A stretch of 64,000 bases of DNA, from NCBI GenBank assembly GCA_030141605.1, contig JAQGDQ010000315.1:62001-126000 (forward strand). Direction: 5' to 3'. Shown in pieces: positions 47,001-50,000 of this stretch (its first letter is position 1; every line of letters begins with the position of its first letter). Made by a program: the position numbers and the translations under genes. Origin of the DNA: Tubiluchus corallicola (Eukaryota; Animalia; Priapulida). The notes under the pieces are model-generated. The model worked only from the letters and a program-made list of their open reading frames with translations. It had not been told where the DNA came from and ran no database searches.

Positions 47001-50000
47001 ATGTCTGCTTGAACTGTCTGCGTGAACTGTTGATAGACTAAATACTTGGAGATGATTAAAGTCACCAGTTGCTATGACTGTTACTCCTGTATGTGTAGCT
47101 ATTACAGTAATTCGTTCCGGAGGGGCTTTCGTATCTTAGAATTTTCATATTATGAGACAAGATTACCCTATAAATGGCGTAATTTGTTCCAGCCCCCCTC
47201 CCCGAAAACAGTCGTATAAAGTGTAAATATTGTACCCACCATATTAATGACAACATAATCATTTACATTAATGTTGAAAAACAATGAGAAAAGATAAGAG
47301 TACGACAAAGCATTCACGTGATGCTACGTAATGCATTCTGGGAGGACCACTGTCGGGCTGCACTTTCGATTTTCGTTTTCATATCTTGAATATTTTTCGT
47401 TAAATAGGACGGAAATTTCTTCTAAGCCCGATTCGTATTCTGAATATTTCGTATAATAGGGTTTTCGTAAGTCAAGGTTCCACTGTATAATGACAACGTA
47501 TGTCATGTAGGAAGATGTTGCCTCCTTATGGTCGTGCAAAAATTTTCATTGTAGATTTTAAACATTAGAAACAAAAAAGAGTGTGTCCAATTTACTTGTA
47601 CATTTTTGTCCAAAAGAGTGGTAAAAATTAGGTTGAAATGGTGCCTGATTGTACTCCTAAACTAGAGTATTACCGCTCAGTTGAGAAATTCCTGTTTTGC
47701 ATGCTGCACTGATAATTAATTTGGTTTTACAGTTATAGGTAGGTGCAGGTGGGACGGCTTCTAAAAAGATATATCAGATACCCGCTGACGACACATGAGT
47801 TGTGTGTCCATTTTCTCTTTCAGATCACTTTATCGAGGATTTGAATGTCTGTGTTTGTATTTGTGTCTGTTTTTTTAAGTGTGTGGTCATTGTTGAAGGC
47901 ACGATCTATGTTGGAAAGGCTTATTCTTTTCTCTCTCCAGGTCTGCAACTGGTTCGGCAACAAGCGGATCCGCCACAAGAAGAACATGCGAAACATAGGT
48001 AAGAAATGGGGTGTGGTTGGGGAAGCAGTGAATTCTGATGAAGGATTTTCTCTCCGCAGGTGTCTAACTGGTTCGGCAACAAGCGTATAAGGTACAAGAA
48101 GAACATAGGTAAGGCACAGGAGGAGGCTAATCTGTATGCAGCAAAGGCTGCGGCAGCTACAGCAGCGGCATCGGTCAGCGGTCAGACTGCCGGACAGCCG
48201 GGTAAAGTAGTCAAATTGCAGGCCATCCATGGCCGTCCACTTATTGACCTGCCTGGCTAACTCGACTCAGAACATAAGCCTTCAGTGCCTGTCTTATTGA
48301 AGGAGATACTGAAAATTCTGTGTATTGAAAAACATTGTTCTAAAGTAGAACTGTTCATTTTCCCTGGTGGTCTTCTCTGAACTGATATATAATAATGTGT
48401 CTGCATTTTGCAGTTTATTTCTCAAATTTTCAGTAATCTCTTTTGATAAGAAAATTACCTGTTTCTGTGAGAACAATTCCTAAGTTGTTAACTTAGCTTC
48501 TGACAACCTTCCGTTAATGTAGTTCTAACTTTCCAACAACATTGTCTTGCTTTACACCTCTTTTCCATCCTTTACAAGCATTGCTGAAACAACCAAATGA
48601 CTAACTCGCAAGTGTGTGCTTGTGCATGTGTTAATCCTTCACACCCATAAAAGTTGCCTCGTTCTTTCACCATTTTTTCAGGTTTTTGTTGATGTCCAGT
48701 GCCAGTGTATCTTTTACTAAAACTGCGCTTACATTTGCTGCATTTATCAAAGCCTCAAGCTTTTAACTAATGTGTTTTGATTGCTTTTTTTACTTTATGC
48801 GCCAGTTTATTTGCTTCCCAGTTTAATTTTTCTGTGCGATTTTGCCTCAAGTGCTTGCATGGATTTTCGTATTTGCTTTATCGCCCGTTCCTATGAAATT
48901 CAGGAACCTTCTTGTGCTGTTGAGCTTTGTTTTAAGTTGGTGTTTTCAGTTTTCAGTTTTCAGTTTTACTAAAGGCACAGATGAATGATTATTCGTGTCT
49001 ACAGACATTGTGCATTATTGTGCTTATTTTCTGGCATGTGATAAGTGACAAATACTCTATGATATTATTCCCATTTGAAACTAATTTGGTCAAACTGATT
49101 GGCTAATGTATGTAACTGTTTCAAGTTGTGTGTCCACTGTCCAGTGTCATGCCTGATAGTGGGCAAGTGTGCCCATGGCTCAGTTTAAATTTTGCTTTAT
49201 CCTGTTTGAATAATAATGCAAGATAGCTATAAAAATATTTGTAAGTTTCTGTAAATTAAGAGAAAAGTTTTAATTCTACTTGCTTAATTTTACGTAGTTT
49301 AATCCTGGTAATATTTTTCATTTCATGTAGCTGATTAAAAACAGTTATATAAATTTAACATTGAATAAACCTGCTTTTGTAAATTTTAGCAAGTGCATTT
49401 TGTATTGAACCATCTTGTGGTATCAGTTCATTCTCTATTCATAGCTAATATATTGGTTTTTTTTGTAGGTTATAATTTGGTGCCTAATTCTCAAGGCCAA
49501 ATGATGGGAGGTCAGCAGGAGATGTACAACATGAACGGCGACGGCTACCACAGTGGAGCATCAGTTGGTGCTAACGTGCAATCACAGGTGGGTAAAAAGC
49601 TTTAGTGATTTTTTCATTCTGAAAAGTCGATCACGTTTAGCAAATCCTGAATCATGACCTTGACAATTGCCTTTATTGGTTGTGAAAGTAAATAATGTAT
49701 TACTATTATGATTTATAATTACGATCAACCTCAGATATATGGGACACCTCCGGACCGGGAAAAACCGTCCTTTATATCTCAAGTTGAGTCAAACCGAGGG
49801 TGTATATAGACCTCTACTTTTTTGTACTTTTACCCATATTTTGATGGATTATTGCTGCACTGAATCTCCTTCAGTGATTAAGGGGGGGGGGGGATGTGAC
49901 CGCGGAAACCGAGCTGTTCAAAGCCCGAGTTTGCGAAAAATCGAGGTTAAAAATCGATTAATTTTGCTTTGATCATAGGGTCCCTTATATGCGAGGTAAT

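What the first reader, a model, noticed from the sequence alone, without database searches (positions are those of the whole stretch)
47941..48201. Tandemly duplicated homeodomain recognition-helix exon in Pbx: a candidate mutually exclusive splicing switch for Hox-cofactor function
Seen: two adjacent exons, 6a (47941-47998) and 6b (48060-48201), both have strong acceptors, GT donors and the same phases (0 in, 1 out), so either joins exon 5 to exon 7 in frame. Joining 6a to 6b across the 61-nt intron frameshifts to an immediate stop (…NIGV*). Over the 16 aligned codons, 6a differs by four synonymous codons (GTC/GTG, CGG/CGT, ATC/ATA, CGC/AGG) and only two amino-acid changes (S46C, Y56H), plus an in-frame 9-nt insertion. 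That pattern suggests purifying selection rather than decay. The DNA-contacting W48-F49-G50-N51-R53-R55 residues are kept, but 6a lacks [13 protein letters not shown]. Established: in Hox-Pbx/Exd structures the Hox YPWM Trp binds a pocket formed by the TALE loop with helix-3 residues including R53/Y56, and the post-homeodomain helix 4 enhances cooperative binding. Inference: 6a encodes a DNA-binding Pbx isoform (~463 aa) with altered or reduced Hox cooperativity. I do not know of this arrangement in described Pbx/exd genes.
Basis: partly seen in the sequence, partly recalled or inferred. Interest (0 to 1): 0.92.

Follow-up and report, generated by a model that had tools for sequence, protein, structure and literature searches.

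The report
Duplicated Pbx exon drops helix 4
This invertebrate's Pbx gene, the main partner of Hox proteins, carries two side-by-side versions of its DNA-reading exon, and the shorter one is spliced into a transcript of a related lineage, so the gene likely switches between a normal protein and one predicted to cooperate less with Hox proteins.

Summary
Exons 6a (47941-47998, 58 nt) and 6b (48060-48201, 142 nt) each join exon 5 to exon 7 in frame; using both or neither ends in an early stop. New here: a spliced contig of a diverged relative (run X2; RNA by a guess) joins exon 5 to 6a to exon 7 with exactly 58 nt between; no 6b contig was laid. 6a looks selected (dN/dS 0.07; 145 of 5160 neutral simulations did as well). 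The 6a donor is a copy of a latent donor inside 6b, which points to a partial duplication. A second version of this exon also shows in gene models of Ridgeia, Tubulanus and one unnamed animal. Not shown: 6b junctions in RNA, mutual exclusivity itself, tissue control, and any effect on Hox binding. Closest precedent: C. elegans unc-62 exons 7a/7b. My five searches found no such pair described for Pbx. Verdict: a real, expressed, probably functional exon pair; a new variant of a known kind.

The parts
47941..47998 (+). Exon 6a: duplicated recognition-helix exon, 58 nt, S46C, Y56H, 9-nt insertion, no helix 4
   Evidence: both junctions in contig 9 of run X2
47999..48059 (+). 61-nt intron between 6a and 6b; branch-point-like CTGAT with its A at 48038, 40 nt from the 6a donor and 21 nt from the 6b acceptor
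   Evidence: consensus match only
48060..48201 (+). Exon 6b: canonical helix 3 plus helix 4 and Ala-rich tail, 142 nt
   Evidence: junctions not seen in RNA
48106..48114 (+). Latent donor inside 6b (cut 48108/48109), homologous to the 6a donor; would give an in-frame 49-nt exon without helix 4
   Evidence: use not observed
44788..44923 (+). Exon 5: homeodomain helices 1-2 with the TALE loop
   Evidence: donor used in X2
49469..49587 (+). Exon 7, common downstream exon
19885..20072 (+). First mapped coding exon (PBC-A start)
   Evidence: not covered by the laid stretch
21947..22020 (+). Exon 2
   Evidence: its end appears as the loose end of X2 contig 9
40579..40829 (+). Exon 3 (PBC domain)
43583..43773 (+). 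Exon 4 (PBC domain)
51892..51975 (+). Exon 8; an internal in-frame acceptor at 51922 is the one used in X2
53629..53799 (+). Last coding exon, to the stop codon

Best explanation
The Pbx gene holds two tandem versions of its recognition-helix exon, the short one (6a) is spliced between exons 5 and 7 in a contig of a related lineage, and the two are likely used one at a time to give a normal Pbx and a form predicted to bind DNA but cooperate less with Hox proteins. Steps: (1) inferred: a partial tandem duplication copied the acceptor, the first 49 nt of exon 6 and the latent donor formed by its Ile-Gly-Lys codons, which at once made a complete in-frame exon without helix 4. (2) Shown: either exon alone keeps the frame; both or neither give an early stop. 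(3) Inferred: exclusivity is kept by decay of the frameshifted messages, helped by a donor-to-branch-point distance of only 40 nt. (4) Shown: 6a keeps W48, F49, N51, R53 and R55, leaves the PBC domain intact, and loses Y56 and helix 4. (5) Predicted: the 6a protein still binds Meis/Prep and DNA but forms weaker Hox-Pbx-DNA complexes, so exon choice would set how much Hox-competent Pbx a cell has.
For: X2 contig 9 (1198 nt, depth 286) joins 44923 to 47941 and 47998 to 49469 with GT..AG ends; the gap in the record is 58 nt (6b would be 142, short 6b 49), and the bin depth of 35.6 equals 58 nt at 286. A 6b-derived 58-mer matches 6a at only 43 of 58. X2 is a diverged lineage: 3.6-10.2% over five exon pieces, 14 of 14 listed exon-3 differences synonymous. 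6a against 6b: 5 differences in 8.7 synonymous sites, 3 in 39.3 nonsynonymous, dN/dS 0.07; with 6a neutral and 6b constrained, 145 of 5160 simulations had 2 or fewer amino-acid changes, median 8. 6b equals the canonical motif, found in 187 of 188 segments. A second version of this exon shows in Ridgeia P0001, in unnamed P0122 and in Tubulanus isoform X1 (1 of 5 members). AlphaFold2 gives the canonical Tubulanus isoform a helix to residue 322 (pLDDT 77-80 over 301-320) and the alternative one none past 304 (50 and 41). Non-3n mutually exclusive exons relied on NMD in 14 of 19 worm clusters (PMC4165533, passages). Cooperative DNA binding with HOX depended on the extended homeodomain with the HCM (PMC6426973, passages).
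Against: One contig from one run, RNA only by a guess, and not from this individual. No 6b junction was seen, so two isoforms were not observed side by side. The selection test rests on 16 codons (p about 0.03), and the exon was noticed because it is similar. The letters of 6a in X2 were not displayed. A 61-nt intron is spliceable in animals with short introns (the worm minimum is about 40 nt), so steric exclusion is unproven. C46 occurs in 6 of 185 segments, mostly ordinary Pbx proteins, so S46C may be harmless. Exd chains without helix 4 have been crystallised, and reviews call the need for the HCM disputed (PMC11310070). No protein like the 6a isoform was found and 0 of 19 metagenome loci held two copies. 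The folds are of a stand-in species with a 20-row alignment.
Confidence: 0.6

Rival explanations
1. 6a is a real, selected alternative exon, but it tunes something other than Hox cooperativity, such as DNA affinity, protein stability, nuclear import or binding of non-Hox partners; Hox binding is much the same.
For: Same splicing and selection evidence. Exd chains ending at position 60 exist in the PDB. In one study an HCM deletion kept its oncogenic activity (PMC6426973). PBX1 K297 and K308, just after the homeodomain, cross-link to PREP1 and MEIS1 (PMC7545097).
Against: The two features lost, Y56 and helix 4, are near-invariant (181 and 187 of 188 segments) and are the ones tied to Hox binding (helix 4; Y56: recalled).
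Confidence: 0.22
2. The pair controls Pbx dose rather than making two working proteins: 6a acts as an attenuating exon (weak protein, double inclusion or intron retention leading to decay), or it has become the main exon with 6b in minor use.
For: Only 6a was seen in X2. Double inclusion and read-through of the intron both end in early stops.
Against: The contig seen is the clean in-frame 5-6a-7 form at high depth. 6a amino acids are conserved, which a decay-only exon would not need. 6b is fully canonical.
Confidence: 0.1
3. 6a is a neutral partial duplicate that is spliced only because it inherited good splice sites.
For: Its donor is a by-product of coding sequence. It carries H56, seen in 0 of 188 segments. 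The test has only 16 codons; retention in X2 at 85% would be unremarkable at a neutral divergence of 0.15 (p 0.49).
Against: Synonymous distance to 6b is about 1.1 with only two amino-acid changes; the insertion is in frame; it is the only form laid in X2, with its length and both ends kept in a lineage at up to 0.25 synonymous difference.
Confidence: 0.06
4. The tandem is an assembly artefact (two haplotypes or paralogs joined).
For: No read or contig spanning 6a-6b was displayed; X1 depth in that bin is only 3.8.
Against: The copies differ by 16% plus an indel, against 0 to about 3% between the window and the eight listed X1 contigs, and 6a is spliced to this gene's own exons 5 and 7 in X2.
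Confidence: 0.02

Closest known systems
C. elegans unc-62 (Meis/Homothorax) exons 7a/7b (PMC3585033, PMC4165533; passages read)
   Same: TALE-class Hox cofactor; two homologous, non-3n, mutually exclusive exons inside the homeodomain; stage- and tissue-specific use shown there.
   Different: Meis class, not PBC. The unc-62 pair encodes the N-terminal part of the homeodomain (30% amino-acid identity, 238-nt intron); here the recognition helix is duplicated and helix 4 is removed.
TCF3 E12/E47 mutually exclusive exons (PMC6795145; only the search listing and start of the abstract seen)
   Same: Exon choice swaps the DNA-binding and dimerization part of a transcription factor.
   Different: bHLH domain, two full alternatives; here one copy is a partial duplicate lacking the partner-binding extension.
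Vertebrate Pbx1a/1b and Pbx1d isoforms (PMC4755740, PMC10884236; passages)
   Same: Regulated splicing changes Pbx activity; the 1a/1b switch is developmental.
   Different: [quoted passage not shown] Neither has a duplicated helix-3 exon.
Drosophila hth micro-exon 8 (PMC7392893; abstract only)
   Same: Alternative splicing tunes a TALE cofactor.
   Different: Alternative 5' splice site between the MH domain and homeodomain; no duplication; helix 3 untouched.

Membership tests
PBC-class TALE homeobox gene (Pbx/exd) | PBC domain followed by a TALE homeodomain | tested here: met
   Pfam PF03792 on exons 3 and 4, PF05920/PF00046 on exon 5; 6b matches PBX1 and Exd chains
Mutually exclusive exon pair from tandem duplication | Adjacent homologous exons of equal phase with their own splice sites | tested here: met
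Mutually exclusive exon pair from tandem duplication | The newer exon is spliced singly between the common flanks | tested here: met
   X2 contig 9, exon 5-6a-7; one contig, related lineage
Mutually exclusive exon pair from tandem duplication | The other exon is also spliced singly between the same flanks | tested here: inconclusive
   No 6b contig in X2; contigs show presence, not absence
Mutually exclusive exon pair from tandem duplication | Double inclusion and double skipping are absent or destroyed | tested here: inconclusive
   Both are frameshifts with early stops; message levels and NMD not measured
Sterically enforced exclusivity | Donor-to-branch-point distance below the species minimum | tested here: inconclusive
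   Predicted 40 nt; the species' minimum intron size is unknown (no genome held)
Regulated isoform switch like unc-62 7a/7b | Tissue- or stage-specific exon choice | not testable with these tools
   One RNA-like run, no tissue record
Hox-cooperativity switch | Isoforms differ in YPWM-dependent complex formation on DNA | not testable with these tools
   Needs EMSA or SELEX; only a stand-in fold was run

The most novel reading that the evidence does not exclude
The helix-3/helix-4 exon of Pbx has been duplicated repeatedly and independently in invertebrates (this animal, a nemertean, an annelid and an unnamed animal), each time changing residue 56 or helix 4, so an overlooked splicing switch turns the Hox-cofactor role of Pbx up or down while leaving it on DNA with Meis/Prep. 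All 7 non-Tyr residues at position 56 in the census came from loci with two copies.
Probability: 0.3. Interest if true: 0.85.

Novelty: new variant of a known kind. Interest (0 to 1): 0.64.

Why it matters
Helix 3 and helix 4 of Pbx/Exd are close to invariant across animals. A natural, expressed isoform that keeps the DNA contacts and drops the Hox-side features would separate Hox-dependent from Hox-independent Pbx functions within one gene and give a direct test of what helix 4 and Y56 do in vivo. It would let invertebrates with one Pbx gene diversify the cofactor by splicing rather than by paralogs. It also shows a simple route to a new exon: duplicating an exon up to a latent donor in its own coding sequence.

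Tried and rejected
No whole genome is held, so no second Pbx locus or intron-size distribution could be checked. The run search listed no holder on record as RNA. The letters of 6a in X2 and any DNA record spanning 6a-6b remain unseen. Protein searches with 6a plus read-through and with exon 7 found nothing (1 and 2 candidates, none scored). phmmer over 1.84 billion representatives with the 6a read-through gave one hit, a repeat-rich 1132-aa protein unrelated by inspection. Ten exact look-ups of window ORFs: 0 of 10 in the collection. A 6a-specific (His56) pattern: 0 metagenome hits. 19 metagenome loci (scan cut at 4 of 64 parts): 0 of 19 with two copies, but most are short and several look spliced. 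Genome contigs: 2 loci, one chance match and one single-copy Pbx. The tree left the organism unresolved among non-arthropod bilaterians. Homology of the 61-nt intron to the 6b continuation is rejected (942 of 1000 shuffles as good); its likeness to the DNA upstream of 6a is weak (10 of 1000, partly pyrimidine tract). Earlier findings of this scan: nothing relevant. Two searches for pocket residues gave nothing usable; LaRonde-LeBlanc 2003 is not held. The spliced 6a protein itself was not folded and no complex was predicted.

Full report
The gene. The window holds one Pbx/exd gene on the plus strand, with nine mapped coding exons from 19885 to 53799. Pfam finds the PBC domain on exons 3-4 and the TALE homeodomain on exon 5. 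A tree of 21 proteins puts it among non-arthropod bilaterian Pbx proteins without resolving the phylum; Ptychodera, Saccoglossus, Haliotis and Tubulanus score almost alike.

The observation. 6a (47941-47998) and 6b (48060-48201) have AG/GT ends and are both 3n+1 long. Either gives a full-length protein (423 and 451 aa from the ATG at 19885); both give 301 aa and neither 291 aa. The 6a donor is therefore the Ile-Gly-Lys codon string of the parent exon. The 61-nt intron does not resemble the rest of 6b (942 of 1000 shuffles as good) and weakly resembles the DNA upstream of 6a (10 of 1000). I infer a partial duplication of about 110 nt that ended just after the latent donor, followed by a 9-nt insertion.

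Expression. Two runs were listed. X1 behaves as DNA close to the window. X2 has the same species label, is RNA by a guess, and holds none of the sampled words. Laid on 40300-54300, X2 gave 45 contigs, one of which (record 9, 1198 nt, depth 286) runs through exons 3, 4, 5, a middle exon, 7, a short exon 8 and 9, skipping each intron. The two joints at the middle exon are 44923 to 47941 and 47998 to 49469, both GT..AG. The record has 58 letters there, and the bin depth (35.6) is what 58 nt at depth 286 gives (35.56; 142 nt would give 87). So 6a is spliced as predicted, and nothing was laid on 6b. This is one contig; contigs drop rare forms, so 6b's absence says nothing. X2 differs from the window by 3.6-10.2% in five exon pieces, and 14 of 14 listed exon-3 differences (of 19 in that piece) are synonymous, so it is a separate lineage that has kept 6a's length and both ends. 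The letters of 6a in X2 were not displayed; retention at the 85% threshold has p 0.03 at a neutral divergence of 0.25 but 0.49 at 0.15, so that argument is weak.

Selection. Between 6a and 6b over 16 codons: pS 0.58, pN 0.08, dN/dS 0.07. The right null is a neutral 6a beside a constrained 6b. Of 60000 simulations, 5160 had exactly four synonymous codons, and 145 of these (2.8%) had two or fewer amino-acid changes; the median was 8. Modest, but in the expected direction.

Other animals. A search with 6b gave 1678 hits, of which 120 were listed, so the census leans to canonical sequences. With cluster members (20 clusters) 186 of 200 proteins held carry the helix-3 motif, 188 segments: Y56 in 181, F56 in 7, H56 in 0; the helix-4 motif in 187. 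Three exceptions stand out. The Ridgeia piscesae model P0001 has two helix-3/4 segments in a row, the second with F56. The unnamed ORF P0122 reads through two copies separated by intron-like text, both F56, the second also C46; four cluster mates match one or other copy. Tubulanus polymorphus isoform X1 (1 of 5 members) swaps the segment after K58 for a diverged helix-4 homologue and rejoins at the next exon. These are gene models without genomic context; a duplicated exon is my reading of them. Isoform sets of Ptychodera (3), Saccoglossus (4), Liolophura (8), Octopus-containing clusters (6 and 8) and Macrostomum (5) showed none, nor did 19 of 19 metagenome loci. The variant copy lies upstream here and downstream in the Ridgeia model, and 6a still shares its pyrimidine tract with 6b, so separate origins are more likely than one ancient one (inference). 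AlphaFold2 on the same 20 sequences gives canonical Tubulanus Pbx a confident helix through residue 322 and isoform X1 none beyond 304; this is a stand-in, not the window's isoform.

Mechanism. Exclusivity: frameshifts would send double-inclusion and double-skipping messages to NMD, as in 14 of 19 non-3n worm clusters (PMC4165533, passages); a predicted branch point 40 nt from the 6a donor may add steric interference. Protein: 6a keeps W48, F49, N51, R53, R55 and the PBC domain. The hexapeptide pocket is built from helix 1, the TALE loop and helix 3 (PMC5564525, passages; PMC3957477, one passage); that Y56 lines it is recalled. Cooperative binding with HOX depended on the extended homeodomain with the HCM (PMC6426973), and the title of Piper 1999 names a role for the fourth helix (reference list). 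Against a simple on/off switch: 63-residue Exd chains ending at position 60 are in 1b8i, 2r5y and 2r5z, recalled as Hox-Exd-DNA complexes, and the need for the HCM is called disputed (PMC11310070). I commit to weakened, not abolished, Hox cooperativity, at 0.6 for the whole explanation; that 6a is a real, used exon I put near 0.9.

What is known. unc-62 7a/7b is a mutually exclusive pair in a TALE homeodomain with tissue-specific use (PMC3585033, PMC4165533). Known Pbx isoforms arise by exon skipping (PMC4755740, PMC10884236). Searches for a duplicated or mutually exclusive helix-3 exon in Pbx/exd: 2 papers; 0; 0; 0; 60 papers, 25 listed; I read passages of three and the abstract of one. None of what I saw describes it. 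The library lacks most subscription journals, and supplementary table S9 of PMC9803972 on a sex-specific splicing event in a clam pbx gene was not seen.

Verdict. Real, expressed in a relative, probably selected, with parallels in other invertebrates. A new variant of a known kind; the functional claim is untested. Interest 0.64.

Noticed in passing
window 23471-31098: A young Ty3/Gypsy-like LTR element in Pbx intron 2, minus strand: intact 1630-aa ORF (29725-24836) with SCAN, zinc knuckle, protease, then integrase before reverse transcriptase and RNase H; flanking direct repeats 94-98% identical. The integrase-first order is recalled as typical of the Gmr1 group.
   Followed up: partly
window 51892-51975: Exon 8 has an internal in-frame acceptor at 51922; X2 uses it, dropping 10 codons.
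   Followed up: partly
window 48106-48114: Latent donor in 6b that matches the consensus better than 6b's own donor; a third, helix-4-less isoform with canonical helix 3 is possible.
   Followed up: partly
window 63791-63909: One 5S rRNA copy, 91.8 bits, full length.
   Followed up: no
P0001, P0122 and cluster mates P0085, P0121, P0123, P0124: All 7 Phe56 segments of the census come from loci with two helix-3 copies; the second copy in P0122 also has C46 and M47.
   Followed up: partly
P0112 (Ylistrum isoform X2): This scallop Pbx model has a tandem repeat of the end of the PBC exon-3 segment, a second internal duplication in Pbx.
   Followed up: no
L021:1-9969: A contig filed as a bacterial MAG carries intron-split Pbx exons 5 and 6, so it is animal contamination.
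   Followed up: no
window 19855-19884: The frame is open upstream of the ATG at 19885 back to an acceptor-like site, so a further 5' coding exon may exist.
   Followed up: no
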